Shown in pieces: positions 8,300 through 59,290 of a stretch of DNA of 64,000 nucleotides. Each line of letters begins with the position of its first letter. Position 1 is the stretch's first letter. A model generated the notes under the pieces. It searched no databases, was not told the DNA's origin, and saw only the letters and a program-made list of their open reading frames with translations. The translations under genes were made by a program, and so were the position numbers. Origin of the DNA: an uncultured Acidobacteriota bacterium (GTDB lineage Bacteria; Acidobacteriota; Thermoanaerobaculia; UBA5066; Gp7-AA6); NCBI GenBank assembly GCA_963736455.1, contig CAVTON010000002.1, positions 96,257 through 160,256 on the forward strand, in the 5' to 3' direction.

Positions 8300-8319
8300 G
8301 CGCGATCGCGCCGGACCCC

Positions 8320-9821: not shown

Positions 9822-10721
9822 ATGCCGAGCGACACGGAAAAGGAGCCCCTGTCCCGGCGCTGGCGCGCCGACGCCGTGCTTATCGCCGTCACGATCGTGT
9901 GGGGCGCCGACTTCGTGCTGGTCAAGAACCTCCTCGGCGTCGTGCCGCCGCTTCCGTTTCTGTTCTGGCGGTTCGCGGCCGCCACCGCGCTCGTCGCGCT
10001 CGGACTTCCCGGGCGGGCCTCGACGCCGGGGGTCTGGCGCGACGGCCTGCGGGTCGGCGGCCTCCTCGCTCTCGGAATGCTGCTCCAGGTGCTCGGGCAG
10101 GCCGAGACCACCGCGTCGCACGCGTCGTTCCTGACGGGGATGGCCTCGGTGTTCACGCCCGCGGCGGCTTACGCGATGACGCGCCGGCTCCCGACGCTCG
10201 AGAACGGTCTCGGGATCCTGGTCGCGGGCACGGGCTTCGTATTGATGACGCTTCCCACCGAAGGCGCGATGAATCGCGGGGACTTGCTCGTCTTCGGCTG
10301 CGGCGTGACGTTCGCCTTCTACATCGTGGAGATGGCCGAGCGTTCGGCGCGGCACGACCCGGTGTGGTTCACCTTCATCCAGCTCGCCGCGACGACCGCG
10401 GCGGCGGGGTTGATCGCTTTCGTGCAGGGGGGAACGGCGGGCTTGGAAGGAGGGATCCGGCCGATCCTGTCGGATGTCGCCCTCGTCGTTCAGGCCGTCT
10501 TCCTGGTGGTCCTCGGGAGCGCCGGCACGTACGTGTTCCAGACCTGGGCGCAGGGGCACATGTCCGCCACGCACGCGGCCATCATCTACACGCTCGAACC
10601 GGTCGTCACGGCGCTGCTCGCCGCGCGGTTCCTCGAAGAGCGCCTGGGCACGCGGGGTTGGGCGGGAGGAGCGCTCGTCCTCGCGGGGATCGTCGTGTCG
10701 GAGGTGCGCCTGCGGCGCTGA
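9822..10721 (+). CDS. DMT/EamA family transporter
   Basis: About 10 TM segments, IVWG and AAIIYTLEPV motifs. Confidence 0.9.
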   Translation: MPSDTEKEPLSRRWRADAVLIAVTIVWGADFVLVKNLLGVVPPLPFLFWRFAAATALVALGLPGRASTPGVWRDGLRVGGLLALGMLLQVLGQAETTASHASFLTGMASVFTPAAAYAMTRRLPTLENGLGILVAGTGFVLMTLPTEGAMNRGDLLVFGCGVTFAFYIVEMAERSARHDPVWFTFIQLAATTAAAGLIAFVQGGTAGLEGGIRPILSDVALVVQAVFLVVLGSAGTYVFQTWAQGHMSATHAAIIYTLEPVVTALLAARFLEERLGTRGWAGGALVLAGIVVSEVRLRR

Positions 10722-40224: not shown

Positions 40225-40740
40225 ATGTACGCGTCCCTGGTCCGAGCGGTCCTCGACGACTCGCAGCGGCAGCGCGCCGGCCGAGAAGTCCAGCAGCTGA
40301 GAGACCGGCACCCCCGGGCCTCGCGGGACGAGCTGGCGGAGCGTCTGATCCGCCGGGCGGCCCTCCAGTGCGCCGCGGCCGGCGGGCTGCTCGCGGGTCC
40401 CGCGGCCTTCTTCGGGGCCGTGCCGTTCGGCGCCGACCTGACCTTCCAGGCCGTGACGATCCACAGGCTGGTCCTCGGACTGGCGAGCCTCTACGGCGCC
40501 GAGGTCAGCGCCGGGAGCCGCGCCGCGGGAGTCGCGGGCGGCTTCTCCGCCGGCATCGCTTCCGAGCTCGTCCGGCAGGGGCTCGTTCGTGTGCTCCGGA
40601 GGACGCTGCCCCGGAGGCCCGGCCTTCGAACGGCCGCGGGCGCGCTCGCCGGCGGCGCTTTGGGCTATGCCGCCGCGATCGCGGTCGGCCGCCTCGCGGG
40701 CGACGCCTTTCGCGGTCGGCGCCGGCTCTTCGGGCGATGA
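40225..40740 (+). CDS. Hypothetical membrane-associated protein (EcsC/DUF697-like)
   Basis: Gly/Ala-rich hydrophobic helices. Stop overlaps the thiO start. Confidence 0.7.
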   Translation: MYASLVRAVLDDSQRQRAGREVQQLRDRHPRASRDELAERLIRRAALQCAAAGGLLAGPAAFFGAVPFGADLTFQAVTIHRLVLGLASLYGAEVSAGSRAAGVAGGFSAGIASELVRQGLVRVLRRTLPRRPGLRTAAGALAGGALGYAAAIAVGRLAGDAFRGRRRLFGR

Positions 40741-41861
40741 GCGGCGGCCGCGCCGACGTCGTCATCGCGGGAGGGGGCCTCATCGGGTGCGCGCTCGCGG
40801 CCGAGCTGGCGCGCCGCGGGCGGAGCGTCATCGTCGTCGAAAAGGCGGAGCCCGGCGCGGAGGCTTCGGGAGCGGCGGCCGGAATGCTTTCTCCCCAGTC
40901 CGACGCGCGGGTCCGCGACGCGTTTTTCGACCTGGCCCTGGAGAGCCACGCCCTCTATCCCGCGTGGACGCAGGAGCTGACCGCCGAGACCGGCATCGAG
41001 GTCGGCTACCGTCGCACCGGGCTCCTGCTCTGCCGTGACGAGGAGGATACCGGCGCCGGATCGGACGACGTCTTCGCGTGGCAGCGTGCGGCGGGCCTGC
41101 CGGTCGTGAGTCTCTCGCCGGACGCGCTGGCCCGGGCCGCCGGCGGCCGGCTCTCCGCGCAGGTGCGGAGCGCCCTCTGGTTTCCGGAGGAGGGCGCCGT
41201 GGATCCGCGGTCGCTCACGCGCGCGGCGTGGAGGGCGGCCGTCCGCCGCGGCGCCGACGTTCGGACGGGGACGGCGGTGCGGGGATTCCGGATCGAGGGC
41301 GATGTATGCCGCGGGCTCGACACCGATGCGGGCCCGATCGAAGCCGAGGCGACGGTGGATGCCGCGGGCGCGTGGGCGGCATTTCCGGGCCAGCTCCCCC
41401 TGGCGCTTCCCGTCGAGCCCGTCCGCGGACAGATCGTGGAGCTCGCGCCGTCTGATCCCCTCGACACGATCGTGGCGGCCGAGGAGGTGTACATCGTGCC
41501 GCGGCCCGGCGGAACGGTTCTTCTCGGCTCGACGCTCGAGCGCGTCGGTTTTCGGAAGGCCGTCACGCCGGAGGCCGTCGGGAGGCTGCGGGCCGCGGCG
41601 GTGCGCCTTCTTCCCGACCTCGCCTCCGCGCGCGTCGTCGCGTCCTGGTCCGGCCTGCGCCCCGGGACTCCCGATGGATGGCCGATCCTCGGGGGAGGCC
41701 CGGTTCGAGGTCTCTACTTCGCCGCGGGTCACTTCCGCAACGGGATCCTTCTCGCGCCGGCAACGGCTCGTTGCGTCGCCGACCTGCTCTGCGGAGACCC
41801 CGCTCGCGACCTCTCGCCGTTCTCCATCGGCCGCTTTGCGCCGGCGCCGCAGGTGGCTTGA
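40737..41861 (+). CDS. thiO: Glycine oxidase ThiO-like FAD oxidoreductase
   Basis: GGGLIG, ASGAAAGML, PVRGQ, GLRP, GHFRNGILLAP. Confidence 0.85.
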   Translation: MSGGRADVVIAGGGLIGCALAAELARRGRSVIVVEKAEPGAEASGAAAGMLSPQSDARVRDAFFDLALESHALYPAWTQELTAETGIEVGYRRTGLLLCRDEEDTGAGSDDVFAWQRAAGLPVVSLSPDALARAAGGRLSAQVRSALWFPEEGAVDPRSLTRAAWRAAVRRGADVRTGTAVRGFRIEGDVCRGLDTDAGPIEAEATVDAAGAWAAFPGQLPLALPVEPVRGQIVELAPSDPLDTIVAAEEVYIVPRPGGTVLLGSTLERVGFRKAVTPEAVGRLRAAAVRLLPDLASARVVASWSGLRPGTPDGWPILGGGPVRGLYFAAGHFRNGILLAPATARCVADLLCGDPARDLSPFSIGRFAPAPQVA

Positions 41862-41980: not shown

Positions 41981-43849
41981 ATGAGAACAGCGGTGTACGC
42001 GGGCATCCGGCGGGCCGCCGATGTTCTGTGGTCTCTGGCCCGAGCGGTCGATCGCCGCTTTCCGGAGCGCAACTTTCAGCCGAAGTGGGCGCCGGCGCCG
42101 CTCCTGAAACAGCGCGAGCGCAGCTTCCCGCCGCTCGGTTTTCCCCGAAAGACCGACTCGCTTTGTCCCCGATGCGTTTCCGAGGTCCGAGCCCAGATCC
42201 TGTCCGGCGAAGCCGACTGGAAGGTGCTCATCGAGGGAAAGCCGGGCGAGATCCCGGCCGAGATCGTCGAGGAAGACGGCCGGATCCTGATGAAGAAGGA
42301 CTGCGCGAAGCACGGCCACTTCGAAGACGTCATGTCGACCGATCCGGCGTTCTTCCGCCGCCTCGAGTCCATGTACCCCGGACGCGACTTCGTCATCCCG
42401 AAGGACGGCCTCCACGAGCACGGCACCTCGTCGATCAAGTACGGACGGGGCGCGGTTCTGACGATCGACCTGACGAACCGCTGCAACATGATGTGCGACC
42501 CGTGCTTCATGGACGCCAACCAGGTCGGCTACGTGCACGAGCTCGACTGGGAAGACGTCCAGAAGATGCTCGACGATGCGGCCTCGATCAAGCCGCGCCG
42601 CCAGCTCTCCGTCCAGTTCTCGGGAGGCGAGCCGACCCTGTCGCCCCACTTCCTGCCGGCGATCCGCTACGCGCGGAAGCTCGGGTACTTCTCGGTCCAA
42701 TGCGCGACCAACGGCATCCGGTTCGCGCAGGACGAGGACTTCGCCCGGCAGGCCGCGGAGGCCGGGCTTCGCTTCGCCTATCTCCAGTTCGACGGCGTCG
42801 GCAACGAGCGCAACCAGCATCGCAAGGTGGGCAACCTCTACGACGTGAAGCTCCGGGCCATCGAGAACCTCCACAAGCACGGCGTGGACGTGACTCTGGT
42901 CGTGACCATCGTCAACAGCATCAACAACGATCAGGTCGGCGACATCATCCGCTTCGGCCTCGACCACATCGACAAGGTGACCTGCGTGGCGTTCCAGCCG
43001 GTGTCGTTCACCGGCCGGGACGAGGACATCGACGACGAAACGCGAACCCGCCAGAGGTACACGCTCTCGAACCTCGCCCATGACGTGAAGGCGCAGGCGG
43101 GCATCGGCGAGCCGATGCGGGACTGGTATCCGTTGTCGGCGGCCGGTCCGTTCTCCGATCTCAAGGATCTGCTCGGCGGCCTGGAAGCCGACTTCGGTTC
43201 GTTCAAGTGCGGCTGCCATCCCAACTGCGGCATCGGCACGCTGATGCTCGTCGAGGAGAAGACGAAGAAGGCCGTCACGGTGCCGTCGGTCCTCGACGTG
43301 GACCGGCTGATGTCCGACATCAAGTCGATCACCGATTCGGGCCGCCGGAAGCTCTGGACGACGGTGCAGGTGGGCCTCTCGGTCCTTCGCAACCTGCGTC
43401 CCGAGGGCGTCCCGCAGGGGCTGACTCCCTGGAAGGTCGCCAAGGTCATGGACGGTCACACCGGCGGCAAGCTCGGCTTCACCACGAAGAAGCGCCACGA
43501 TTGGCGCATCTTCTTCATCGGCGGGATGTGGTTCCAGGACCTCTTCAACTACGACTTCCGCCGGACCGAGATGTGCATCATCCCGTACGCGACGCAGATG
43601 GGGGAGATCTCGTTCTGCGCGTACAACACGGGCGTGGGCTGGCGCAAGATCATCGAGGAGATGTTCCAGACCGCATCGCTCGCGGAGTGGCACAAGAAGA
43701 ACGGGCGCCACGAGGTCTTTGCTCGCGGACGAAACGTCCCGCTGCCGGTTCTCCCCGGACAAAAGGTGCCGGCGATGCCGACGGCCCCGAGGCCGACGCC
43801 GCCCCCCTCGATCGGGACGCTTCCCGTCTACGGCGCCGCGGGGAAGTGA
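41981..43849 (+). CDS. tes: Radical SAM enzyme, tetraether lipid synthase (Tes/GDGT-MAS, MJ0619 family) homolog
   Basis: SLCPRC...KKDCAKHGHFEDV, IDLTNRCNMMCDPCF, QFSGGEPT, YLQFDG, FQPVSFTGR, CHPNCG, MWFQDLFNYD...CIIPYAT...FCAYN. Family is recognised; the activity is inferred. Confidence 0.82.
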   Translation: MRTAVYAGIRRAADVLWSLARAVDRRFPERNFQPKWAPAPLLKQRERSFPPLGFPRKTDSLCPRCVSEVRAQILSGEADWKVLIEGKPGEIPAEIVEEDGRILMKKDCAKHGHFEDVMSTDPAFFRRLESMYPGRDFVIPKDGLHEHGTSSIKYGRGAVLTIDLTNRCNMMCDPCFMDANQVGYVHELDWEDVQKMLDDAASIKPRRQLSVQFSGGEPTLSPHFLPAIRYARKLGYFSVQCATNGIRFAQDEDFARQAAEAGLRFAYLQFDGVGNERNQHRKVGNLYDVKLRAIENLHKHGVDVTLVVTIVNSINNDQVGDIIRFGLDHIDKVTCVAFQPVSFTGRDEDIDDETRTRQRYTLSNLAHDVKAQAGIGEPMRDWYPLSAAGPFSDLKDLLGGLEADFGSFKCGCHPNCGIGTLMLVEEKTKKAVTVPSVLDVDRLMSDIKSITDSGRRKLWTTVQVGLSVLRNLRPEGVPQGLTPWKVAKVMDGHTGGKLGFTTKKRHDWRIFFIGGMWFQDLFNYDFRRTEMCIIPYATQMGEISFCAYNTGVGWRKIIEEMFQTASLAEWHKKNGRHEVFARGRNVPLPVLPGQKVPAMPTAPRPTPPPSIGTLPVYGAAGK

Positions 43850-43889: not shown

Positions 43890-45254
43890 TCAGCCTCTGC
43901 GCCCCCAGCGCGGCTGCGGACCCGACGGCGCCGCGGCGTGGCGCGGCCCGGCCGGCCCGCGCGGGGCGGCATGGCGCTCGGCCTTCTGCTGCGCCCGGGC
44001 GCGCTCGGCGGTCTCGTGCGCGACCCGACGCTCGGCCTTCTCCCGGGCTCGCTTGCGCTCCTCGGCCTTGCGGGCGCGGATCGCGGCGATGCGCTCCGCG
44101 ATGGGCACCTCGAACCGCTCGGCCGGAGCCTTCGTGTAGTCGAATCCCGGCACCGTGATTCGGGGCAGACGCTTTCCGATCTCGCGCTCGATCGCGGCGA
44201 GGTCCGTGGTTTCCTCGGGCGATACGAACGTGAACGCGTCCCCGGTCATCTCGGCGCGGGCGGTGCGGCCGACGCGGTGAATGTAGTCCTCGGGGACGTT
44301 CGGCACGTCGAAGTTGACGACGTGGGACAGGGCCTCGACGTCGATGCCGCGAGCGGCGATGTCCGTCGCGACGAGGACGCGGAACCGGCCGTTCTTGAAG
44401 CCGGCCAGCGCCTCGGTGCGCTGCGCCTGGCTGCGGTTGCCGTGGATGCGCTCGCAGCCGACGCCGTGCCGCGCGAGGTTCTCGGCGAGCCGGTTGGCGC
44501 GGTGCTTGGTGCGCGTAAAGACGAGCACGTTCTTGATGTCGCCGCGCTTCAGCAGCTCGAGCAGCAGCGGCGCCTTGAGGTTCTGGGGCACCGGGTACAC
44601 CGCCTGCGTGATCCCGACGGCCGGCGCGGCCTTGCGCTCGAGGTTGACGGTGAACGGGTTCTTGAGCATCTCGCGCGTCAGCTGGGCGATGGGCGGGGGC
44701 ATGGTGGCCGAGAAGAACAGCGTTTGCCGCCGCGCCGGAAGATGCTTGAGAACCCGGCGGATGTCCGGGAGAAATCCCATGTCGAGCATCCGGTCGGCCT
44801 CGTCCAGCACGAGGACCTCGAGGTGGTCGAGCCTGGCGTAGGGGAACCGGAAGTGATCGAGCAGCCGGCCCGGGGTCGCGACGATGACGTCGGCACCCGT
44901 ACGAAACGCGTGCTCCTGCGGTCCCATGGCGACGCCCCCGAAGACGGGGGCCGAGGAGAGCGACGTGTGGACCGTCAGCGCCTTGGCATGCTCGTCGATC
45001 TGCGCGGCGAGCTCGCGCGTGGGCGTCAGGATGAGGGCCCGCGTGACGCCGCGCTTCTTGCCGGCCAGGTGATGGAGGATCGGCAGCAGAAAGGCGGCGG
45101 TCTTGCCGCTGCCGGTCATCGCGCAGGCGAGGACGTCGCGGCCCTCGAGCGCCGGCGGGATCGCATCGGCCTGGATCGGCGTGGGACGGGTGAAGCCCAT
45201 CTCGCGCACGCCGCGAACGAGATCGGGATGGAGACCAAACTGGGAAAAAGACAA
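43890..45254 (-). CDS. rhlE: DEAD-box RNA helicase (RhlE-like)
   Basis: TGSGKT, PTRELA, DEAD, SAT, HRVGRTAR. GAGGAGG RBS with TTG start. Confidence 0.92.
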   Translation of the reverse strand: MSFSQFGLHPDLVRGVREMGFTRPTPIQADAIPPALEGRDVLACAMTGSGKTAAFLLPILHHLAGKKRGVTRALILTPTRELAAQIDEHAKALTVHTSLSSAPVFGGVAMGPQEHAFRTGADVIVATPGRLLDHFRFPYARLDHLEVLVLDEADRMLDMGFLPDIRRVLKHLPARRQTLFFSATMPPPIAQLTREMLKNPFTVNLERKAAPAVGITQAVYPVPQNLKAPLLLELLKRGDIKNVLVFTRTKHRANRLAENLARHGVGCERIHGNRSQAQRTEALAGFKNGRFRVLVATDIAARGIDVEALSHVVNFDVPNVPEDYIHRVGRTARAEMTGDAFTFVSPEETTDLAAIEREIGKRLPRITVPGFDYTKAPAERFEVPIAERIAAIRARKAEERKRAREKAERRVAHETAERARAQQKAERHAAPRGPAGPRHAAAPSGPQPRWGRRG

Positions 45255-46440: not shown

Positions 46441-46506
46441 GTGTGCATTCTAGCTGCGGGGACCGGCGACCGTGAAGCAGGACGTGAGATACTTCTTGCC
46501 CACATC

Positions 46507-47943
46507 GTGCACATTCGCCAGACGCTGGCCGTCGTACTCCTCGCGGCTGTCGGCGCGGCGAGAGCGAGCGCCAAGCCGGGTTCGGGGGACGTCCGCCTGA
46601 CGCCGGAAGCGGAGCGCACGATGAAGCGCCTGATCCTGGGTCTCGAGCCGAACGAGACGAAGATGTACATGGTTCCCGAAACCCTGGCCTGGAATCCGGC
46701 CACCCGGGATCCGCGCGTACGATGGCTTCGACGCCAGCTCTATCATCTCTCCTTCGAGCTCCTGCATGGACAGATCTTCCGCAGCGCTCCGCCCTATACG
46801 CGCTTCTTCATCGCTGTTCCGGACCCGAAGTCCACGATCGGCGCCCTCGGCAACGAGGAGTCGGTCTTTCGAGAGTACCTGAGGGAGCGCCTGCGCTGGA
46901 CCGACGCGATGATTGACCAGCGTGTGCGGTTCTTCCAGGTCTCGGCGGCCGTGCCGTTTCCCCAGGACATGACCGAACCGCTCGGCTACGACGACCAGGA
47001 CCGGCTCGTGCTCGGCCTCGGTGGGATCGGCGATGACGTCTACACCCGGGCCGTCGAGCGCCTCGCCCAGTCCAGCCCGAACGATTTCGTCCTCCGTCTC
47101 CTGCCCGGCGTGAATACCGAGGGGGGGGACCTCGCCCTCGTCCGGGTTCCCGAGGGAGGGATCGGGCTGCTCTTGGGCCACAACCGAATCCGCCGGCTGG
47201 CGGAACAGGCGCATCCGGGCCTCGCGCCGGACGCGCCGATCCCGACCTCGTGGATCGAGGATGCCCGGCGCGCTTACGCGAAGGCGTTTTCCGGCGTGGA
47301 GACGATCATCGTGGGCGAGGAGGCTCTGCGCGATCCGAAGCTGAACAATCCGGAGATCTTCCACCTGGACATGGTCGCCGCCGTGATCCGGGGCCGGAGC
47401 GGCGCCGTGACGGCTTTCGTTCCCACCTACCAGGGCAACCCGGTCGACGCCCTGTCGCACGTGCACCTCTCGGAGGAATCCGTGCGGCGGTTCCAGGCCG
47501 AGTATGACCGCGCGGCGGAACAACTGCGCCGGCGCGGGTACCCCGTGGTCAGAGTGCCGTATGCCGACCATCCGGCCCGCAGTCCCGTCGGCATAGGCAA
47601 GTTCGTCGACGCGGTGACCGGCCGGCCGTCGGTCCTGCTCGGGCGCTATCCCGATCACCTGAGAGATTCCGACGATCGAAATGTCCAGACACAGCTTCAG
47701 CTCAGATTCGAGACGCTCGACGAGGCCGTCGAGGCGTGGCGGCGCGATCCGTCCGATGCCCGGTGGGAGGCGCTGCGAGCCGCCGTCGCGGCCTGCTGGC
47801 GCCAAATGGACGCCGCCCAGGAGGCGCCGAACCCCCTCTACGAAGAGCAGAAGCGGCTCTACGAGGCCGCCGGGATCGACGTGGCGCCGCTGCCGATTTT
47901 TCCGACGGGCGAAGGCGGCGTGCATTGTCTCGTGCTGAAATAG
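46507..47943 (+). CDS. Secreted pentein (amidinotransferase/deiminase superfamily) protein
   Basis: Signal-peptide-like N-terminus, FPQD, EGGD, FHLD, terminal GEGGVHC. Confidence 0.75.
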   Translation: MHIRQTLAVVLLAAVGAARASAKPGSGDVRLTPEAERTMKRLILGLEPNETKMYMVPETLAWNPATRDPRVRWLRRQLYHLSFELLHGQIFRSAPPYTRFFIAVPDPKSTIGALGNEESVFREYLRERLRWTDAMIDQRVRFFQVSAAVPFPQDMTEPLGYDDQDRLVLGLGGIGDDVYTRAVERLAQSSPNDFVLRLLPGVNTEGGDLALVRVPEGGIGLLLGHNRIRRLAEQAHPGLAPDAPIPTSWIEDARRAYAKAFSGVETIIVGEEALRDPKLNNPEIFHLDMVAAVIRGRSGAVTAFVPTYQGNPVDALSHVHLSEESVRRFQAEYDRAAEQLRRRGYPVVRVPYADHPARSPVGIGKFVDAVTGRPSVLLGRYPDHLRDSDDRNVQTQLQLRFETLDEAVEAWRRDPSDARWEALRAAVAACWRQMDAAQEAPNPLYEEQKRLYEAAGIDVAPLPIFPTGEGGVHCLVLK

Positions 47944-51764: not shown

Positions 51765-54200
51765 CTATTGCAGATTGAACGTCTTCACGATGAACACCGC
51801 CATCTGTCCTCTGGTATTCGGGCTCGACGGGCAATAGTTTCCTCCGCCGCAGCCGCTCGTGATGTTTTCGTCGGCGAGCCGCTCGATCCAGTCGGGAAAC
51901 CCCGTCCCCGGCGTGCAGGTCACGTCGAAGAAGACCCCCGTGCAGGGCGGCGGCGTGTACGTCGATCCGTGCTCCATCTTCAGCAGGAAGACCGCCATCT
52001 GATCGCGGCGGACCGGATTGCCCGGGCAGTAGTTGGTCCCTCCGCAGCCGCCCGTGACGCCGAGAGTGGCGAGGGCCTGGATCCAGGGGGCGAACGTGCC
52101 GGGACACGGGACGTCGGTGAAGAAACCGGGCGTGCAGGCCGGCGGAACGTAGCAGACGCCGAACTTGGCCTTCAGCAGGAAGACCGCCATCTGCTGGCGC
52201 AGCGTGCTCGACGCGACGCCGTAGTTGCCGCCGCCGACACCCGCCGTGATGCCGTTGGAAACGAGGGTCGTGACGAACGCGTGGAAGGTGTTGTTCTGCG
52301 GAACGTCGTTGAAATCCGTGACGTATCCCTTGGAGAGCGTTCCCGAGGATGCGTCCGGATTGGTCAGCGTCACGTCGCTCAGGGTGCCGGCCGTGAGGGC
52401 GGGCGTCCGCGCTTCGGCCTGAGTCGAGCTCTGCACGTCGACGTCGGTGGCGGGAATGCCTCCGAGTTCTATCGTCGCCCCGGCCGCGAAATTGGTCCCG
52501 CGGACCACGAAGAGCAGCCCGGCGGCGGGAGGTCCGGATACCGGGCTGATCGAGAACACGATGCGGGGAGAGAGCTCCGACGTGTTCCCGGAGGGGTCGG
52601 TCGCCGTGACCGTCACGTGCTGATCCGCCTCGATCGTGTAAGGCAGGGTGACGTCGAAATCGGCGTGGCCCGCGCCGTCGGTCGACTGAATCGACGAGCC
52701 GATGTAGACGAGGCCCTCCTCGAAATCGTGGGGCCGCCCCGCGCAGGCGGGATTCGCGAAGAAGTCGAGGGCGTACGCCGTCGAAGGCGCGCTGTCGAGA
52801 GTTCCGTGGATTTCGGTGCCCGACGGCGAGAGCGGAACCGCCGAGGAGAGGAGCGGATAATTCTGGAGGCCGTTGGCGCCGGTGTCGGCATCCAGGGCGT
52901 CGTTCGCGGTCACGTTGTCGCCTCCGAGATCGATGCCGATCGTCCCGTTGGCGTAGATCGAGTTGCCCCGGATGGCGTTGCCCGAAACGGAGCCCTGCAC
53001 GACGATGCCGCCCGCTCCGCTGTGCGCGACGGTATTGCCTTCTCCCGGCCCCGTTCCGCCGATCATGGCGTTGCTGGCGAGAACGTAGATGCCGCGGTTC
53101 GCGTTGCCGAGCGCGAACGTTCCCGTGGCGTCCGTTCCGATGAGGTTGCCCTGCACGATGACGCCGGTCGCGCTGCTGATCTCGATCCCGTGAATCGCGT
53201 TGCCGGAGATGACGTTGCCCTCTCCCGGAGCCGATCCGCCGATGCGGCTGCCGTTGGCCTCGACGAGGATTCCGTAGTTGACGTTGCCGACGGGCGCCAT
53301 GCCGGCCACGTCCGTGCCGATGAAGTTGCCGCTGACGACGAGGTTGGAGCCATTGTTCAGGCGAACGCCGTAGCCGCCGTTGCCCGAAATCACGTTGCGG
53401 CTCTCGGGCGTGGTGCCGCCGATCGTGATGTCCATGCTGGAGGAGCTGTCGACTTCGACCCCGGTCTGCGCGCCCGCGAGGGCATTGCCGCCCGACGCAT
53501 CCGTGCCGATGAGGTTTCCCTGGACCACGTTCCCCGTCCCGCCGTTGCCGGCCGCGCCGAAGTTGACGCCGCCCACGGCGTTGCCGGAGATCAGGTTGCG
53601 GGCCGCGGGAGTCGTGCCGCCGATGGTGACGCTCGAGGGCCCGTTGTTGGCCAGGATTCCGAAGTTGACGTTTCCCTGCGTGGCGGTGCCCGACGGGTCG
53701 GTCCCGATGAAGTTGCCCGCGATCACGATCCCGGCGGTGCCGGAGACGCGGATCCCGGCCCACTTTCCGCGGTTGACGGCCAGGCCGCGCACGGTGCTGC
53801 CTCCGGCGCCGGGGGCGAAGAACAGGACGGCGGCCTCGCTGCCCGTTCCGGCGTTCGTGCCGTCGAGCTCGATCAGGATCACGGCATTGGTGCCGAGGGT
53901 CGGACCGTTCGTGTTCGCGCTCGCACCGGACTGCGAATATCCGTCGATCGTCACGCCGTCGGTGATCTGCGGCAGAGCCGACGCCGGCGCGATCGTCTGC
54001 ACACCGGAGCCGAGGATGTTGAAGGCGATCGTGTCGGCGCCGACGTTTGCGTTGGCGTCCAGGATCGCCTGTCGCAGCGAGCCGGCCCCGGAGTCGTTCG
54101 TATTCGTCACAGAGAACGTCATGCCGGAGGCGAACGCCGTGAAACCGACCAACAGGACCGACGCCGCAGACGGAGTTCGACCCAGGCGGTGGACGCGCAT
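51765..54200 (-). CDS. Secreted beta-helix + IPT/TIG + 3x Cys-rich SLH surface protein
   Basis: TNTNDSGAGSLRQAI, GNFIGTD/RNLISGN repeats, GNTSELS, SLH repeats; ends KTFNLQ*. Confidence 0.9.
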   Translation of the reverse strand: MRVHRLGRTPSAASVLLVGFTAFASGMTFSVTNTNDSGAGSLRQAILDANANVGADTIAFNILGSGVQTIAPASALPQITDGVTIDGYSQSGASANTNGPTLGTNAVILIELDGTNAGTGSEAAVLFFAPGAGGSTVRGLAVNRGKWAGIRVSGTAGIVIAGNFIGTDPSGTATQGNVNFGILANNGPSSVTIGGTTPAARNLISGNAVGGVNFGAAGNGGTGNVVQGNLIGTDASGGNALAGAQTGVEVDSSSSMDITIGGTTPESRNVISGNGGYGVRLNNGSNLVVSGNFIGTDVAGMAPVGNVNYGILVEANGSRIGGSAPGEGNVISGNAIHGIEISSATGVIVQGNLIGTDATGTFALGNANRGIYVLASNAMIGGTGPGEGNTVAHSGAGGIVVQGSVSGNAIRGNSIYANGTIGIDLGGDNVTANDALDADTGANGLQNYPLLSSAVPLSPSGTEIHGTLDSAPSTAYALDFFANPACAGRPHDFEEGLVYIGSSIQSTDGAGHADFDVTLPYTIEADQHVTVTATDPSGNTSELSPRIVFSISPVSGPPAAGLLFVVRGTNFAAGATIELGGIPATDVDVQSSTQAEARTPALTAGTLSDVTLTNPDASSGTLSKGYVTDFNDVPQNNTFHAFVTTLVSNGITAGVGGGNYGVASSTLRQQMAVFLLKAKFGVCYVPPACTPGFFTDVPCPGTFAPWIQALATLGVTGGCGGTNYCPGNPVRRDQMAVFLLKMEHGSTYTPPPCTGVFFDVTCTPGTGFPDWIERLADENITSGCGGGNYCPSSPNTRGQMAVFIVKTFNLQ

Positions 54201-54284
54201 GTGACCGACCTTTCTGGATTGTACAGACGGAGGGAGACCCGAAGAGCCTATCCCACTCGGGTCGCAAGGAGCGGCACGGCTCAC

Positions 54285-56759
54285 TCAACCCCGAACGCGG
54301 CGACGCGGACCCTCGCCGACTCCGCATTGCAGGTTGAACGTCTTGTCGATGAACACCGCCATCTGACCCCGCGTATTGGGATTGCCCGGGCAGTACATTC
54401 CGGACGCGCAGCCTCCGGTGATGTTCTCGTGGGCGAGCTCCTCGATCCAGTTGGCGAAGTTCGACGGGCAGGGCACGTCGGAGAAGACGCCCGTGCACAT
54501 CGGCGGGACATAGGTCGAGCCGTGCTCCGCCTTCAGCAGGAACACGGCCATCTGGTCGCGCCGGACGGGATTCTGCGGGCAGAAGTCGCCCCCGCCGCAG
54601 CCGCCCGTGATGCCCTCGGCCGACATGGCCTCGATCCAGGGCGCGAAGTTGGAGGAGCAGGGCACGTCGGCGAAGACGCCCATGCACGGCGGCGGCGTGT
54701 AGCAGAGGCCGTGCTTCGCCTTCAGAAGGAACACGGCCATCTGCTGGCGCAAGGTGTCGTCGTTGACGCCGTAGAGGCCGCCGCCCACGCCGGCCGTGAT
54801 CCCGTTGGAGACGAGGATCGTCACGAATTCGTAGAACGTCTGGCTGAGCGGCACGTCCAGGAAATCCGCCACGTATCCCTTGACGAGAGTTCCCGCCGAG
54901 CCGTCGGAGTTGGTGACGACGACGTCATTGGCGGAGCCGGAAGCGAGGGCCGGCGTCGTCGCGGAGATGGAAGTGTAGGAATTGACGACGACGCCGGTCG
55001 CGGGCTGTCCGCCGATATTCACCGTCGCTCCGGACAGGAAGTTCGTGCCGCTGATCGTGAGCGACGTGCCGCCGCTTCCCGGGCCGGAGCGAGGCACGGT
55101 GGAGAATGGCAGTCGCTGCGAGAGCTCGGACGTATTGCCCGAGGGGTCGGTCGCGGTCGCCGAAATGGGCGAACCGTCGGCCGCGGCCATGAGCGTCGTG
55201 ACGTGGAACGTCCCGTTGCCGGACCCGTCGGTCATGATCGTCGCCGACCCGATGTACGTCTCGCCCTGCAGAAAAGCGTGCGGGAACTTCGCGCAGGCGG
55301 GGTTGGCGTAGAAGTCCAGGTCGAAGAGGGTTCCCGGAGTCGAGTTCAGAAGGCCGTCCACGGTCGTATTGGAGCCGCCGTACACGACGCTCGAGACGAT
55401 CGGAAAGTTCTGCAGACCGTTCGCTCCCGTGTCCGGGTCGCCGAGGTCGTTGGCCGTCACGCCGTCGTTTCCGAGGTCGATCCCGATGCCGCCGTTGTCG
55501 TGGATGGAATTCCCGCGGACCGTGTTGCCGGATATGTCGCCGCCGAAGCTGTAAATGGAAATGCCGATGCCCGTGTTGAACGCGACCGTGTTGCCCGCTC
55601 CATCGGTCACGTCCCCGACGTGGGCGTCGTTCACGCCGAAGACGGTGATCCCGTGAGCCGCGTTGCCGAGCGGCGCCGTCCCCGAAGCATCGGTGCCGAC
55701 GAGATTGCCTTCGATCACGGCGCCGTTGGCATAGGCCACGATGCCGTCGGCCCCGTTGGCGGAGATGACGTTTCCGGCTCCCGGCGCGCTGCCGCCGATC
55801 ATCATGCCCGGCGCTTCGGCGCTGATGCCGAACCCGACGTTTTTCAGCGGCGCCGTTCCGGTGACGTCGAGGCCCACGAAGTTGCCCTCGACGACGTCCC
55901 CGGTGCCCGTGGCGGCCTCCATGCGGATCCCGTTCACGCCGTTGCCCGAGACGACGTTGCGGTCGGCCGCGGTCGTCCCGCCGATGACGGTATCCGACGT
56001 GGATCCGGCGAAGATGATGCCTTCCTGGGTCGCTCCCGCAAACCCGGCCGAGCCGGTGGCGTCGGGGCCGATCAGGTTGCCCTGGAAGTGATGTCCCGTC
56101 CCGCCGCTGCCGCTGATGCCCCAGAAGATCCCGGCGCTGCCGTTGCCGGAGATCAGGTTGCGCGTCGCGGGCGTCGTTCCGCCGATCGTGATGTTCGAGC
56201 CGACGCTGGATTCCTCGATCCCATAGCCGCAGCCGTGGGCGACGAGACCGCTCGCGTCGGTCCCCAGGAAATCCCCTTCCACGACGGTATTGCTGCCGGC
56301 CTCGATGTTGACGCACGGGCCGCCGGACCGATTGATCGCGAGGCCGCGAATGACCGTTCCGTCGCTGCCCGTCTTTAGATCGAGGGCGCCATCGATGCTG
56401 GTGTTCGTCCCGTCGAGCTCGATCAGGATGACCGCGTTCGTTCCCTGCGTCGGCCCGTTCGTGTTGGCGCTCGCGCCCGGCTGCGTGTAGCCGTCGATGG
56501 TTACGCCCTTCGTGATCGCCGGCAGAGGAGAGCCCGGACTGATCGTGTGGACGCTCGAGCCCGGGATATCGAACGCGATCGTCGTCCCCGCGTTCGCGTC
56601 GGCGTAGGTGATCGCGTCGCGCAGCGTGCAGGTGCCGGCGCCGGTCGTCGCGCAGGCGTTCGTCGAGTCTCCGGAATCGTTGACCGTGACCGTCGCGGCC
56701 GACATCGGGACCGCGAGGGCGCCCGCCAGGGCCATGGTCCAGAGGGTGGTTCTCATCAC
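54285..56759 (-). CDS. Secreted CSLREA-type beta-helix + IPT/TIG + 3x Cys-rich SLH protein
   Basis: CTLRDA motif, same architecture. 13-aa tail after KTFNLQ. Confidence 0.9.
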   Translation of the reverse strand: MMRTTLWTMALAGALAVPMSAATVTVNDSGDSTNACATTGAGTCTLRDAITYADANAGTTIAFDIPGSSVHTISPGSPLPAITKGVTIDGYTQPGASANTNGPTQGTNAVILIELDGTNTSIDGALDLKTGSDGTVIRGLAINRSGGPCVNIEAGSNTVVEGDFLGTDASGLVAHGCGYGIEESSVGSNITIGGTTPATRNLISGNGSAGIFWGISGSGGTGHHFQGNLIGPDATGSAGFAGATQEGIIFAGSTSDTVIGGTTAADRNVVSGNGVNGIRMEAATGTGDVVEGNFVGLDVTGTAPLKNVGFGISAEAPGMMIGGSAPGAGNVISANGADGIVAYANGAVIEGNLVGTDASGTAPLGNAAHGITVFGVNDAHVGDVTDGAGNTVAFNTGIGISIYSFGGDISGNTVRGNSIHDNGGIGIDLGNDGVTANDLGDPDTGANGLQNFPIVSSVVYGGSNTTVDGLLNSTPGTLFDLDFYANPACAKFPHAFLQGETYIGSATIMTDGSGNGTFHVTTLMAAADGSPISATATDPSGNTSELSQRLPFSTVPRSGPGSGGTSLTISGTNFLSGATVNIGGQPATGVVVNSYTSISATTPALASGSANDVVVTNSDGSAGTLVKGYVADFLDVPLSQTFYEFVTILVSNGITAGVGGGLYGVNDDTLRQQMAVFLLKAKHGLCYTPPPCMGVFADVPCSSNFAPWIEAMSAEGITGGCGGGDFCPQNPVRRDQMAVFLLKAEHGSTYVPPMCTGVFSDVPCPSNFANWIEELAHENITGGCASGMYCPGNPNTRGQMAVFIDKTFNLQCGVGEGPRRRVRG

Positions 56760-56781
56760 AAACTCTCCTTCGAGTCAGCCG

Positions 56782-59229
56782 TTACTGGAGGGTGAATGTG
56801 CGCGTGATGAACACCGCCATCTGGCCGCGCGTGTTGGGATCCGACGGGCAGTAGTTGCCACTGCCGCATCCGCCGGTGATGTTCTCGTGGTAGAGCTGTT
56901 CGATCCAGTTGGCGAAGTTCGACGGGCAGGGCACGTCGGTAAAGACGCCCGTGCACATCGGGGGGGCATAGGTCGAGCCATGCTCGGCCTTCAGGAGGAA
57001 CACGGCCATCTGGTCGCGACGGACCGGGTTCTGGGGGCAGAAGTTCCCGCCGCCGCAGCCACCCGTGATGCCTTCGGCCGCCATGGCCTCGATCCACGGT
57101 GCGAAGTTGGAGGAGCAGGGCACGTCGGCGAAGACTCCCGTGCACGGCGGCGGCGTGTAGCAGAGGCCATGCTGGGCCTTCAGCAGGAAGACGGCCATCT
57201 GCTGTCGCAGCGTGTCGTCGTTGACGCCGTAGAGGCCGCCGCCCACGCCGGCCGTGATCCCGTTCGACACGAGTGTCGTGACGTAGGAATAGAACTGCTG
57301 GGTGTTCGGTACGTCCAGGAAATCGGCGACGAAGCCCTTGACGAGAGTCCCGTTCGTCTCGTCGACGTTGGTCACGACGATGTCGTTCGCCGTGCCGGGC
57401 GTGAGGGCCGGCGTCGTGGCGTCGAGGGACGTGTAGGTAATGACCGTGACGCCGGTCGCCGGTTGCCCACCGATCGTCACGGCGACGCCCGCGAGAAAGT
57501 TGGTGCCGCTGATCGTCAGGACCGTTCCTCCTCCCGCGTCGCCGGATCGGACGTTGTCCGAAAAGGGGAGGCGCTGCGAGAACTCGGAGGTGTTTCCGTT
57601 CGGGTCGGTGGCCGTCACCGAGATTCGAGAGCCGGCCTCGGTGGCGGCGAGCGTCGCGACGTCGAACGTGCCCGTTCCGGTTCCATTGGTCGTGACCTGG
57701 CCCGAGCCGATGTAGGCCTCGCCCTGGACGAAATCGCGGGGGAAGCGGGAGCAGGCCGGATTCGCATAGAAATCGAGGTCGAACGTCGTGTTCGGCGTCG
57801 AGTTCAGAAGGCCCGAGACCGCCGTGTTCGACGCGCCATGAAAGACGCCCGAGACGATCGGGAAATTCTGGAGGTCGTTCGCGCCGGCGTCCGTGTCGCC
57901 GAGGTCGTTCGGGGTCACGCCGTCGGCGCCGAGGTCGATCCCGGTCTGCGTGTTGTCGTGGATCGAATTGCCGCGGATCGTGTTGCCCGTGCCGCTGTAC
58001 ATCAACACGCCGCCGGCGTTCGACACGCCATTGAAGGCCATGACGTTGCCTTCGCCGGGATTCACGCCGCCGATGATCAGGTGGCTGCTGCCCGAGACGG
58101 TCACGGCGGGTCCCTGATTCCCGAGCGGCATCGTCCCGGTGGGATCCGTGCCGATGAAGTTGCCCTGGATCACCAGGCCGTCGGCGCCGCCCTCCATGTT
58201 GATGCCGCCGAAGGCGTTGAAGCCGATCACGTTGCCGGCCCCCGACGCGGAGCCGCCGACCCGGTTGTCGTGGGCGTTGACCTCGACGCCGTAGAGCCCG
58301 TTGCCGAGCGGCAGGGTCCCGGTCACGTCGGTGCCGATGAAGTTGCCTTCGACGACGTCGCCCGTGATGCCGGGGTCTCCCAGGGAATTGCTGATGAGGA
58401 CGCCGCGCCCCGTGTTTCCGGAGATCACATTGCGCGCCGCGGGCGCGGTTCCACCGATCGTCGAGTTCGTGACGCCAAAGGCCATCGAGATCCCGAAGTC
58501 GTTCGGCAGCGCCCCGGTGCCGGCGGCGTTGGTTCCGATGAAGTTTCCCTCCACCACGTGGTCGGCTCCGCCCGCGCCGTCGTCGTTCCCGAACCCGATT
58601 CCCCCGATCTGCGCGCCGGAAATGACGTTGCGTGCGGCGGGCGCCGTTCCTCCGATCACGACTCCGGTCGCCCCGTCGTCGATCAGGACGCCGAAGGGCT
58701 CCGGGCCCGGCACGCTCGAACCCGTGGGGTCGATTCCGAGGAAACAGCCCTCGATCATGATGGTATTCGACGCGAAGATCCCCACCGCGCCCGCGATCGC
58801 GCGATTGATGACGAGGCCGCGGAGCACGCTTCCCGACGATCCGGGAAGGAACACGATTCCATAGCCGCTCGACTGGCCCCCCGCGTCGATCTCGATCCGG
58901 TGCGTCGAGTTGTCTCCGAGTCCCGGTCCGTTGGTGTTGGCGGAAGAACCGGGCTGCGTGTAGCCGTCGATCGTCACCATGGCCACGATGGTCGGATAGG
59001 GCGTCGCCGGCTGCAGAGTCTGAACGCCGCTGCCCGAAATGTCGAAGGCGATCGTCGTGCCCGAGTGGGCGTTGGCATACGTCATCGCGTCGCGGAGCGT
59101 GCAAGGCTGGACGCCGGTCGTCGCGCAGGGATTTGTGGAGTCTCCGGAGTCGTCGACCGTCACGGTGGAGGCGCCGAGCGGCGCCGCGAGCAGAAGGCAC
59201 GCAATCAGAGCCTCGAGAGGCTTCCGCAT
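56782..59229 (-). CDS. Secreted CSLREA-type beta-helix + IPT/TIG + 3x Cys-rich SLH protein
   Basis: CTLRDA motif, GGAGG RBS; ends RTFTLQ*. Confidence 0.9.
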   Translation of the reverse strand: MRKPLEALIACLLLAAPLGASTVTVDDSGDSTNPCATTGVQPCTLRDAMTYANAHSGTTIAFDISGSGVQTLQPATPYPTIVAMVTIDGYTQPGSSANTNGPGLGDNSTHRIEIDAGGQSSGYGIVFLPGSSGSVLRGLVINRAIAGAVGIFASNTIMIEGCFLGIDPTGSSVPGPEPFGVLIDDGATGVVIGGTAPAARNVISGAQIGGIGFGNDDGAGGADHVVEGNFIGTNAAGTGALPNDFGISMAFGVTNSTIGGTAPAARNVISGNTGRGVLISNSLGDPGITGDVVEGNFIGTDVTGTLPLGNGLYGVEVNAHDNRVGGSASGAGNVIGFNAFGGINMEGGADGLVIQGNFIGTDPTGTMPLGNQGPAVTVSGSSHLIIGGVNPGEGNVMAFNGVSNAGGVLMYSGTGNTIRGNSIHDNTQTGIDLGADGVTPNDLGDTDAGANDLQNFPIVSGVFHGASNTAVSGLLNSTPNTTFDLDFYANPACSRFPRDFVQGEAYIGSGQVTTNGTGTGTFDVATLAATEAGSRISVTATDPNGNTSEFSQRLPFSDNVRSGDAGGGTVLTISGTNFLAGVAVTIGGQPATGVTVITYTSLDATTPALTPGTANDIVVTNVDETNGTLVKGFVADFLDVPNTQQFYSYVTTLVSNGITAGVGGGLYGVNDDTLRQQMAVFLLKAQHGLCYTPPPCTGVFADVPCSSNFAPWIEAMAAEGITGGCGGGNFCPQNPVRRDQMAVFLLKAEHGSTYAPPMCTGVFTDVPCPSNFANWIEQLYHENITGGCGSGNYCPSDPNTRGQMAVFITRTFTLQ

Positions 59230-59290
59230 CGTCGACCTCCTTTGTGAGGGACGGAAGCCTATCTCAACCCCTGCGCGGGTTCCGGAAGCC

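What the first reader, a model, noticed from the sequence alone, without database searches (positions are those of the whole stretch)
41981..43849. Bacterial homolog of the archaeal tetraether lipid synthase
Seen: N-terminal CxxC...CxxH site, CxxxCxxC after IDLTNR, FQPVSFTGR, CHPNCG and the terminal MxFxDxxNxD...C...FCAYN block. Established: these motifs characterise Tes/GDGT-MAS (MJ0619 family), which couples lipid tails to form membrane-spanning lipids, and some Acidobacteriota produce branched GDGTs. Inference: this organism is a candidate brGDGT or membrane-spanning lipid producer. The activity of bacterial homologs is not established, and no lipid genes flank it here.
Basis: partly seen in the sequence, partly recalled or inferred. 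Interest (0 to 1): 0.8.

Follow-up and report, generated by a model that had tools for sequence, protein, structure and literature searches.

The report
Cluster-poor bacterial cousin of tetraether synthase
This gene encodes a real, very conserved bacterial relative of the archaeal enzyme that welds two lipid tails together, but it belongs to a separate branch that lacks one iron-sulfur cluster, and this genome has no recognisable ether-lipid genes, so a role in making tetraether climate-proxy lipids is unproven.

Summary
Its closest solved relative is GDGT-MAS/Tes (7TOL: E 7e-69; model-to-structure TM 0.90).

The protein scores 340 bits on NCBIfam's Tes model (cut-off 450). It sits in a sister clade, split from the canonical Tes clade with SH-aLRT 100. 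It has none of the four ligands of the N-terminal auxiliary [4Fe-4S] cluster. It keeps the rubredoxin-like site, the radical SAM cluster, and the catalytic C-terminal cluster with its Met and Tyr.

Canonical Tes also occurs in Acidobacteriota, in 42 of 401 sampled genomes. Of those, 29 of 42 carry a PlsA/Ger-type ether-lipid marker, and in two genomes the two genes are adjacent. Genomes with only the window type carry the marker in 18 of 189.

This genome has no PlsA/Ger marker, no ElbD-like match, no GGGP synthase and no canonical Tes.

Best reading (about 0.45): a lipid-tail C-C coupling enzyme acting on ester-linked lipids. This is untested. Bacterial Tes homologues were proposed as brGDGT enzymes in 2022, and this scan has reported this branch eight times on other DNA.

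The parts
41981..43849 (+). Tes-like radical SAM gene, 622 aa (P0001)
   Evidence: Open frame. Pfam Radical_SAM plus Zn_ribbon_HMPTM. NF045702 at 340 bits, below the 450 cut-off. 7tol_A at E 7e-69. AF2 model pLDDT 89.3; TM 0.90 to 7TOL normalised by target.
41984..42055 (+). N-terminal helix (aa 2-25), part of a roughly 55-aa extension specific to the window-type clade
   Evidence: The model has helix 2-25. NF045702 aligns only from residue 57. The conserved P.W...PL.K...LG.PR.TDSLCP consensus appears in alignment A1. A membrane-surface role is inference only.
42164..42313 (+). Rubredoxin-like Fe site C62, C65 ... C108, H111, with a roughly 22-aa insertion
   Evidence: It aligns with GDGT-MAS C9X2C12X20C33X2H36. 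The ligands are present in 18 of 18 window-type rows. The insertion is seen in all window-type rows and in no row scoring 450 bits or more.
42398..42451 (+). Segment replacing the [4Fe-4S]N motif (aa 140-157, ..GLHEHGTSSIKYGRG..), no cysteine
   Evidence: In the HMMER alignment, GDGT-MAS C73, C77, C80 and the following His align with L144, H147, S150 and K153 (numbering). A second CX3CX2C is present in 0 of 18 window-type rows against 30 of 33 canonical rows.
42482..42505 (+). Radical SAM CX3CX2C (C168, C172, C175)
   Evidence: Invariant in the 53-sequence alignment A1, as is GGEP 215-218.
43208..43228 (+). CGCHPNC: C416 is a ligand of the C-terminal [4Fe-4S]; C410 and C412 are clade-specific extra cysteines
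   Evidence: C416 is invariant. C410 and C412 are present in 18 of 18 window-type rows, against 4 of 33 and 18 of 33 canonical rows.
43526..43618 (+). M516 (= labile Met439), C532, Y536 (= Tyr459) and C546 of the C-terminal cluster domain
   Evidence: Residue-by-residue alignment with 7tol_A, numbering from Lloyd 2022. M516, C532 and C546 are invariant in A1.
43763..43846 (+). Pro-rich, low-confidence C-terminal tail (aa 595-622)
   Evidence: pLDDT is below 50 for residues 595-622. Lengths vary among homologues.
40368..41861 (+). Upstream neighbour: glycine oxidase ThiO (mechanical ORF start; the true start is probably later)
   Evidence: TIGR02352 at 296 bits, above the 250.8 cut-off, matching residues 131-475 of the ORF. 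The pairing with the Tes-like gene is kept only in close relatives: L001-L004, L007, L011.
43890..45254 (-). Downstream convergent neighbour: DEAD-box helicase
   Evidence: Pfam DEAD plus Helicase_C.

Best explanation
The gene encodes a radical SAM enzyme of a bacterial sister branch of archaeal tetraether synthase (Tes/GDGT-MAS).

Inferred mechanism, by homology:
1. The radical SAM [4Fe-4S] cluster cleaves SAM.
2. The 5'-deoxyadenosyl radical abstracts a hydrogen from the terminal carbon of a lipid tail held in a hydrophobic tunnel.
3. The carbon radical is parked on a sulfide of the C-terminal [4Fe-4S] cluster (ligands C416, C532, C546; labile M516).
4. A second SAM activates a second tail.
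5. The two tails are joined by a C(sp3)-C(sp3) bond.

Electrons would enter through the retained rubredoxin-like iron site, because the N-terminal auxiliary cluster of the archaeal enzyme is absent.

This genome shows no ether-lipid or archaeal-lipid genes. The likeliest substrate is therefore an ordinary ester-linked phospholipid, probably iso-branched. The likeliest product is a diabolic-acid-type membrane-spanning lipid, not a tetraether.

Shown here: homology, fold, ligand conservation, clade placement and gene content. Inferred: the chemistry, the substrate and the product.
For: - Full-length homology to GDGT-MAS: E 7e-69 over residues 90-572; NF045702 aligned over 1-484 of 486 positions.
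- The AF2 model (pLDDT 89.3, pTM 0.89) matches 7TOL at TM 0.72 (query) and 0.90 (target), rmsd 3.0 A over 534 columns. The next structures (SkfB, MoaA) match only the radical SAM core, at query TM 0.29.
- The residues the published mechanism rests on are invariant across 53 sequences of both clades: C168/C172/C175, GGEP, C416, M516, C532 and C546. Y536 is nearly invariant (roles from Lloyd 2022).
- GDGT-MAS crystallised with bacterial ester lipids (phosphatidic acid) in its two pockets, so the fold accepts ester lipids.
- There is strong purifying selection. The 120 nearest clusters are 81-92% identical. Orthologues in other phyla are 57-65% identical. Median identity within the clade is 57%, against 38% within canonical Tes.
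- The clade is common in Acidobacteriota: 197 of 401 sampled genomes by my count of the rows. The phylum includes subdivisions known for iso-diabolic acid (subdivisions 1, 3, 4 and 6 per PMC13159169).
- The gene is single-copy in this genome.
Against: - No bacterial Tes homologue has been assayed. The papers I read say so as late as 2025-2026.
- Sahonero-Canavesi et al. found Tes homologues in only 3 of 14 iso-diabolic-acid-producing acidobacteria and concluded that another pathway exists.
- The protein lacks the [4Fe-4S]N cluster and is below the Tes cut-off.
- No lipid gene is a conserved neighbour in 80 related loci. Here the neighbours are thiO and a helicase.
- The clade also occurs in Myxococcota and Gemmatimonadota. 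I know of no membrane-spanning lipids there; this is recalled, not checked.
- Thermoanaerobaculia is not among the subdivisions listed as iso-diabolic acid producers. No paper holds both 'Thermoanaerobaculia' and 'GDGT'.
- I could not inspect the model's coordinates, so the hydrophobic pocket was not examined.
Confidence: 0.45

Rival explanations
1. One reading: the enzyme couples ether-linked tails, so this organism makes branched tetraethers (brGDGTs).
For: - Zeng 2022 proposed this role for bacterial Tes homologues.
- Halamka 2022 proposed it for Solibacter usitatus, which has two Tes homologues plus PlsAR.
- The catalytic ligands are conserved.
Against: - The own genome is 98.4% complete and has no PF09989 or PF06050 match. 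The PF09989 control rings in Thermotoga maritima.
- No ElbD-like multidomain reductase was found: the best NAD_binding_4 match is 60 bits in a 331-aa frame.
- There is no canonical Tes.
- Across 401 Acidobacteriota genomes, the PlsA/Ger marker goes with canonical Tes (29 of 42). It does not go with window-type-only genomes (18 of 189), compared with 30 of 170 genomes with neither.
- In two genomes canonical Tes sits directly beside the PlsA-like gene.
Confidence: 0.07
2. A radical SAM enzyme with the same fold acting on another hydrophobic molecule, or performing another reaction. Examples: a cross-link within one lipid, modification of hopanoids or quinones, or sulfur insertion using the C-terminal cluster.
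For: - It forms a distinct clade with its own conserved features. These are a 22-aa rubredoxin insertion, LH.HG(S/T)S in place of the N cluster, two extra invariant cysteines (C410, C412) beside the catalytic cluster, and a roughly 55-aa N-terminal extension.
- It coexists with canonical Tes in 8 genomes, at 32% identity in the one pair measured (G355), which suggests non-redundant functions.
- The genome makes hopanoids (HpnH, HpnJ).
- The archaeal homologue MA_1114 made only traces of macrocyclic archaeol.
Against: - Every residue needed for the Tes mechanism is kept.
- The fold matches along its whole length, including the lipid-binding C-terminal domain.
- There is no conserved neighbour pointing to another pathway.
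Confidence: 0.3
3. A non-lipid function: pterin methylation, as in the old MJ0619 annotation still used by JGI, or peptide or cofactor maturation like its distant relative TrsS.
For: - JGI names many members '7,8-dihydro-6-hydroxymethylpterin dimethyltransferase'.
- The second-best NCBIfam model is TrsS at 222 bits.
Against: - Lloyd 2022 could not corroborate the pterin methylase assignment and found a long hydrophobic tunnel unsuited to pterins.
- TrsS scores 222 bits against a cut-off of 490.
- No precursor-peptide or cofactor genes are conserved beside the gene.
Confidence: 0.1
4. An inactive or purely structural remnant of Tes.
For: - One cluster has been lost.
- A related sub-branch (P0128 of Terriglobus roseus, P0130, P0156) has also lost C-terminal cluster ligands. 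All three lack C416 and C532, and P0128 also lacks C546.
Against: - In the window type all remaining ligands are invariant in 18 of 18 rows.
- Sequence conservation is very high.
- The frame is intact, with gene-like codon bias.
Confidence: 0.03

Closest known systems
GDGT-MAS / Tes of archaea (M. jannaschii MJ0619, PDB 7TOL/7TOM; NCBIfam NF045702)
   Same: - The overall four-domain fold matches (TM 0.90 normalised by the target).
- It has the same rubredoxin-like CX2C...CX2H site and radical SAM CX3CX2C with GGEP.
- It has the same C-terminal [4Fe-4S] ligands with the labile Met and the nearby Tyr.
   Different: - No [4Fe-4S]N ligands.
- A 22-aa insertion in the rubredoxin domain, a roughly 55-aa N-terminal extension, a disordered Pro-rich tail, and two extra cysteines next to C416.
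- 340 bits against the 450 cut-off.
- Sister clade, 29-39% identity.
- The host makes no archaeal-type precursors that I could find.
Canonical Tes of Acidobacteriota (named 'tetraether lipid synthase Tes' by NCBI for Terriglobales and Korobacteraceae MAGs)
   Same: Same phylum and same superfamily architecture. Both types can occur in one genome, 4-6 kb apart in three genomes.
   Different: - The canonical proteins score 456-619 bits.
- All 9 examined keep the N-cluster CX3CX2C and lack the insertion.
- They co-occur with the PlsA/Ger marker in 29 of 42 genomes and are adjacent to it in G060 and G197.
- The window type is 33-39% identical to them.
Mss, bacterial membrane-spanning lipid synthase (Thermotoga, Thermoanaerobacter; Sahonero-Canavesi 2022)
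   Same: A radical SAM enzyme proposed or shown to couple two fatty-acyl tails. It is the only bacterial enzyme with this activity demonstrated.
   Different: It is only remotely related to Tes. It was reported absent from the acidobacterial genomes those authors screened. No Mss model or sequence was available to me, so the four unassigned SPASM radical SAM genes of this genome could not be tested for membership.
TrsS radical SAM (seleno)protein (NCBIfam NF045646)
   Same: It shares the zinc-ribbon and radical SAM N-terminal half (222 bits over residues 90-374).
   Different: It is far below the cut-off (490), and there is no match to the C-terminal domain.

Membership tests
Tes / GDGT-MAS (NF045702) | Radical SAM CX3CX2C cluster motif and SAM-binding GGE motif | tested here: met
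   C168, C172, C175 and G215-G216-E217-P218 are invariant in 53 sequences.
Tes / GDGT-MAS (NF045702) | Rubredoxin-like mononuclear Fe site CX2C...CX2H | tested here: met
   C62, C65, C108 and H111 are present. The spacing is lengthened by about 22 residues.
Tes / GDGT-MAS (NF045702) | N-terminal auxiliary [4Fe-4S] cluster: C73, C77, C80 plus a conserved His (Lloyd 2022) | tested here: not met
   The aligned residues are L144, H147, S150 and K153. The motif is present in 0 of 18 window-type rows against 30 of 33 canonical rows.
Tes / GDGT-MAS (NF045702) | C-terminal [4Fe-4S] cluster with three Cys and a labile Met (Met439); Tyr459 nearby | tested here: met
   C416, C532, C546 and M516 are invariant. 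Y536 is conserved. Metal binding itself was not tested.
Tes / GDGT-MAS (NF045702) | Score at or above the curated equivalog cut-off (450 bits) | tested here: not met
   340 bits; 338.9 bits in the genome search. Controls are over the cut-off in M. jannaschii, S. acidocaldarius and M. acetivorans.
Tes / GDGT-MAS (NF045702) | Falls inside the clade of proteins that pass the Tes model | tested here: not met
   The 22-row window clade and the 24-row Tes clade are separated with SH-aLRT 100 (midpoint root only). The same split appears with 9 acidobacterial canonical Tes proteins added.
Tes / GDGT-MAS (NF045702) | Same overall fold, including the C-terminal lipid-pocket domain | tested here: met
   7TOL: TM 0.72 (query) and 0.90 (target), rmsd 3.0 A, 534 columns.
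Tes / GDGT-MAS (NF045702) | Catalyses tail-to-tail C-C coupling of membrane lipids | not testable with these tools
   Needs expression and lipid analysis. No bacterial homologue has been assayed, according to the papers read.
brGDGT pathway as proposed (Tes homologue plus PlsA/Ger or ElbD ether formation) | An ether-bond-forming enzyme in the same genome | tested here: not met
   No PF09989 or PF06050 match. Only weak NAD_binding_4 matches. Genome completeness is 98.4%.
Archaeal-type lipid supply | GGGP synthase (PcrB family) in the genome | tested here: not met
   No PF01884 match. The control rings in 7 of the 14 control genomes, over the cut-off in 5, among them all four archaeal controls.
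TrsS (NF045646) | Score at or above 490 bits | tested here: not met
   221.9 bits.
Mss (bacterial MSL synthase) | Homology to the Thermotoga/Thermoanaerobacter Mss proteins | not testable with these tools
   No model or reference sequence was available. The literature calls Mss only remotely related to Tes.

The most novel reading that the evidence does not exclude
The window-type clade, not canonical Tes and not Mss, is the missing synthase that joins iso-fatty-acyl tails of ester-linked phospholipids into iso-diabolic acid in aerobic and microaerobic Acidobacteria. On this reading it has been streamlined to three metal sites. The tetraether (brGDGT) genotype would be a different, rarer combination of canonical Tes plus a PlsA/Ger-type reductase. 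Genome surveys for brGDGT sources would then need to count the two paralogues separately.
Probability: 0.3. Interest if true: 0.8.

Novelty: new variant of a known kind. Interest (0 to 1): 0.45.

Why it matters
Branched tetraethers underlie widely used soil and lake temperature and pH proxies, yet the enzymes and source organisms are unsettled. Genome surveys currently count any 'Tes homologue' as brGDGT potential.

This analysis shows that Acidobacteriota carry two clearly different Tes-family proteins:
- A canonical one that travels with ether-lipid genes.
- A much commoner, cluster-reduced one (this gene) that does not.

Treating them as one inflates or blurs predictions of who makes these lipids. 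If the window type is the iso-diabolic-acid synthase, it would close a long-standing gap. If it is not, a very conserved, abundant soil-bacterial radical SAM enzyme still lacks a function. For this particular window the finding is one more member of a branch already seen repeatedly.

Tried and rejected
- **Conserved neighbours.** tblastn of 12 window genes against 80 related loci, plus de novo clustering of 1104 flanking ORFs, found no lipid gene conserved next to the Tes-like gene. The largest cluster (17 loci) is a kinase/AAA/GAF signalling protein at variable distance. The thiO pairing is limited to close relatives.
- **Expression.** Ten soil RNA-library runs held only 4-7% of the sampled words. 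I laid four of them at 85% likeness. This gave 485-829 short contigs per run, piled on the most conserved segments (about 42474-42607 and 43412-43679). Most are under 95% alike, and no long near-identical piece was found. These are relatives' conserved parts in libraries that may also contain DNA. This is no evidence that this organism or this gene is transcribed.
- **Linking to cultured strains.** Searches with an Acidobacteriaceae window-type protein and with a canonical protein returned only MAG names among the best 120 rows. I could not link either type to cultured strains of known lipid phenotype.
- **Mss.** No model or reference was available. Four SPASM-type radical SAM genes of the genome remain unassigned.
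- **Pocket inspection.** The model's coordinates were not placed in the script box.
- **Papers.** The 2011 iso-diabolic acid paper (PMC3131667) is not held. The search for 'Thermoanaerobaculia', 'lipid' and 'GDGT' found no paper.
- **Promoters and terminators.** The scan around the gene gave no promoter-like site and four terminator-like sites, against 1.1 expected. None sits at a gene end.
Full report
**What is in the sequence.** Window 41981-43849 (+) translates to 622 residues without a stop. The longest mechanical ORF begins at 41678. That start would overlap the upstream gene, which ends at 41861, and the 120 nearest homologues are 617-633 aa long, so 41981 is the likely start (sequence). 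The window is 63-74% GC, and the frame has third-position GC of 0.86. The genome is 4.22 Mb in two contigs, 98.4% complete, and holds one copy of this family.

**Family assignment.** Pfam finds Radical_SAM and the 'HMPTM' zinc ribbon. NCBIfam's best model is the Tes equivalog NF045702, aligned end to end (positions 1-484 of 486), but at 340 bits against a curated cut-off of 450. TrsS is second at 222 bits against a cut-off of 490. The best solved structure by sequence is GDGT-MAS (7tol_A, E 7e-69, residues 90-572); the next match is at E 1e-6. An AlphaFold2 model built from a 53-sequence alignment is confident (pLDDT 89.3, pTM 0.89; only the tail 595-622 is below 50). It matches 7TOL at TM 0.72 normalised by the query and 0.90 normalised by the target, with rmsd 3.0 A over 534 columns. 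All other structures match only the radical SAM core, at query TM up to about 0.30.

**Metal sites compared with the solved enzyme.** Lloyd et al. 2022 (PMC9433317, passages and legends read) describe four cofactors in GDGT-MAS:
- a rubredoxin-like iron (C9X2C12X20C33X2H36)
- an N-terminal auxiliary [4Fe-4S] cluster (C73, C77, C80 and a conserved His)
- the radical SAM cluster
- a C-terminal [4Fe-4S] cluster with labile Met439, on which the substrate carbon is transiently bound; Tyr459 lies nearby

In the residue-by-residue alignment the PDB chain numbering is offset by 20 from the paper's. That alignment and my family alignments give the following.
- The rubredoxin ligands are kept (C62, C65, C108, H111), but with an insertion of about 22 residues.
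- The radical SAM cysteines and GGEP are invariant.
- C416, C532, C546 and M516 (= Met439) are invariant, and Y536 (= Tyr459) is conserved.
- The four N-cluster ligands are replaced by L144, H147, S150 and K153.

A second CX3CX2C upstream of the radical SAM motif is present in 0 of 18 window-type rows, 0 of 4 rows of a degenerate sub-branch, 0 of 1 (P0123), and 30 of 33 canonical rows. One of the three canonical exceptions, P0230, has the same motif with one extra residue. The window type also has two extra invariant cysteines (C410, C412) beside C416. Canonical rows have them in 4 of 33 and 18 of 33.

**Clade placement.** An exhaustive HMMER search of 1.84 billion representatives found 526 proteins at E up to 1e-30. 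I scanned 35 near-full-length representatives with NCBIfam. Twenty pass the Tes cut-off and fifteen do not.

The tree used 46 rows:
- the window protein
- 15 named bacterial loci
- 18 passing and 12 non-passing representatives

It was a quick IQ-TREE search, with SH-aLRT support and a midpoint root only. I left out P0143 and P0134 (frameshifted or partial), P0225 (partial), and P0226 and P0269 (long or intein forms). The tree splits into a 22-row clade holding the window protein and all 15 named bacterial loci, and a 24-row clade holding all 18 passing rows. Both sides have SH-aLRT 100.

The window clade is much more uniform: median identity is 57%, against 38% in the other clade. Among the 80 best genomic loci, labels are Acidobacteriota 55, Myxococcota 14, Gemmatimonadota 6, Pseudomonadota 2, Eiseniibacteriota 1, and none 2.

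**Two Tes-family types in one phylum.** In a sample of 401 Acidobacteriota genomes (400 of high quality), 242 match the window protein at E up to 1e-30. The sample includes the unpublished G023, G145 and G048, on which no conclusion depends. By my count of the rows, 197 of the 242 are close orthologues (E up to 1e-150, 57-87% identity) and 45 are weaker.

Within the window's own class, only its own order has the orthologue:
- Families f1 and f2 are 3 of 3 each.
- Families f3 to f12 have none, apart from two weak matches (E about 1e-33 to 1e-36) in f4.
- f13 has one near-canonical match (E 6e-94; 422 bits on NF045702, just under the cut-off).

Searching the same genomes with NF045702 shows 42 with a canonical Tes above the cut-off (456-619 bits). 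Eight of these also have the window type. All nine canonical acidobacterial proteins I extracted have the N-cluster motif, lack the rubredoxin insertion, and fall in the canonical clade (FastTree, 56 rows). They are 33-39% identical to the window protein. NCBI names such proteins 'tetraether lipid synthase Tes' (Terriglobales, Korobacteraceae), while it names window-type proteins 'radical SAM protein'. The window type is therefore a paralogous subfamily, not simply 'the bacterial Tes'.

**Link to ether-lipid genes.** PF09989 (DUF2229) marks PlsA/Ger-type ester reductases. Its control rings in Thermotoga maritima, the source of the proven Ger. It is present in 77 of the 401 genomes. Cross-tabulating handles by hand gives:

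| Genome group | With PF09989 |
|---|---|
| Canonical Tes | 29 of 42 |
| Window type only | 18 of 189 |
| Neither | 30 of 170 |

The partial sums add up to 77. The 13 canonical genomes without the marker are 12 from one family (f31) plus one other. Twelve of the 13 families with canonical Tes have at least one genome with both. Relatives are not independent, so I attach no p-value.

In G060 and G197 (two genera of family f51), canonical Tes lies directly upstream of a PlsA-like gene (two BcrAD_BadFG stretches plus DUF2229) on the same strand. The gap in G060 is 128 bp. That is 2 of the 29 co-occurring genomes.

In G355, G223 and G140 the two Tes types lie 4-6 kb apart.

**This genome.** I found none of the following:
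- a PF09989 or PF06050 match
- an ElbD-like protein; the best NAD_binding_4 match is 60 bits in a 331-aa frame next to hpnH
- a GGGP synthase
- a canonical Tes

Of 24 radical SAM matches, 20 were fetched and scanned. Fifteen were named above their model's cut-off. They are MoaA, MiaB, HemN, HemW, HpnJ, RimO, one TIGR03960-family protein, MqnC, MqnE, two LipA, HpnH, AmmeMemoRadiSam and RlmN (one family named twice). The other six only had sub-cut-off or no matches, and four of those are SPASM-type. Three matches were not fetched. Whether any is an Mss homologue could not be tested.

The flanking genes are BamD, a kinase-like APH protein, cyclophilin, ThiO (TIGR02352, 296 bits), a DEAD-box helicase, a histidine phosphatase, an unknown 500-aa ORF, RecQ and BipA.

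**Literature.**
- Zeng et al. 2022 (PMC8941075, passages) reported 456 bacterial Tes homologues and proposed a brGDGT role. Their best bacterial hits, in Koribacter and Solibacter, are 40-42% identical to MA_1486.
- Halamka et al. 2022 (PMC10087280, passages) proposed PlsAR plus Tes homologues in S. usitatus.
- Sahonero-Canavesi et al. 2022 (PMC13159169, passages) proved Mss and Ger. They found no mss in the acidobacteria they screened and Tes homologues in only 3 of 14 iso-diabolic-acid producers.
- Papers of 2025-2026 still call the bacterial Tes activity unconfirmed. These are PMC11868695, PMC13274423 and PMC13459092.
- My searches and the passages I read did not mention the missing N-terminal cluster or a two-paralogue split in bacteria. 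I did not search for those words specifically, and supplements were closed.

**Earlier findings in this scan.** This scan has reported the same branch on eight other genomes, each noting the missing cluster. My ligand analysis agrees with them.

**Verdict.** The protein works most probably like Tes, performing radical coupling of lipid tails on the C-terminal cluster, but it fails three membership tests for Tes proper: the cut-off, the clade and the N cluster. For this organism a tetraether product is unlikely. An ester-linked membrane-spanning lipid is the best guess (about 0.45), and another hydrophobic substrate or reaction is the main rival (about 0.3).

Noticed in passing
L112 (G060:C123) 3780-8685 (-); L113 (G197:C22) about 3974-8967 (+): In two acidobacterial genomes a canonical Tes (558 aa; 580 and 566 bits) lies directly upstream of a PlsA/Ger-like gene (two BcrAD_BadFG stretches plus DUF2229), followed by an unassigned ORF of 430-485 aa. 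This looks like an operon for ether-linked membrane-spanning lipids.
   Followed up: partly
P0128 (Terriglobus roseus DSM 18391, WP_014786616.1), P0130, P0156: A sub-branch next to the window type has lost cysteines of the C-terminal catalytic cluster. C416 and C532 are replaced in all three, and in P0128 C546 is also replaced. These copies probably cannot perform Tes-type chemistry.
   Followed up: partly
P0195 and cluster members P0279-P0281: A protein named for Candidatus Parcubacteria / Minisyncoccales passes the Tes cut-off (584 bits) yet also lacks the N-cluster CX3CX2C. Loss of that cluster is therefore not confined to the window-type clade.
   Followed up: no
L050, L058, L063, L067, L072, L074, L078 (mostly Gemmatimonadota-labelled loci): A 449-aa radical SAM gene without further family assignment lies about 300 bp upstream of the Tes-like gene on the same strand in 5 of these 7 loci (elsewhere in the other two). 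A NifU/Fe-S assembly fusion lies downstream in 5 loci.
   Followed up: no
window 51765-61495 (-): Four tandem large paralogous genes (734-839 aa), each with TIG/IPT and S-layer homology (SLH) domains, one with a beta-helix. This is a cell-envelope gene array.
   Followed up: no
window 46441-47943 (+): A 500-aa ORF with gene-like codon bias and no Pfam or NCBIfam match. No counterpart was found in the 80 related loci.
   Followed up: no
G000:C1:2273739-2274740 and C1:2485077-2486513: The genome encodes the hopanoid side-chain enzymes HpnH (352 bits) and HpnJ (804 bits), so it likely makes extended hopanoids.
   Followed up: no
L114 (G355:C29) 3098-5263 and 8880-10580: Window-type and canonical Tes genes lie on the same strand 4 kb apart, separated by a BNR/sortilin-repeat gene. 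Similar spacing occurs in G223 and G140.
   Followed up: partly
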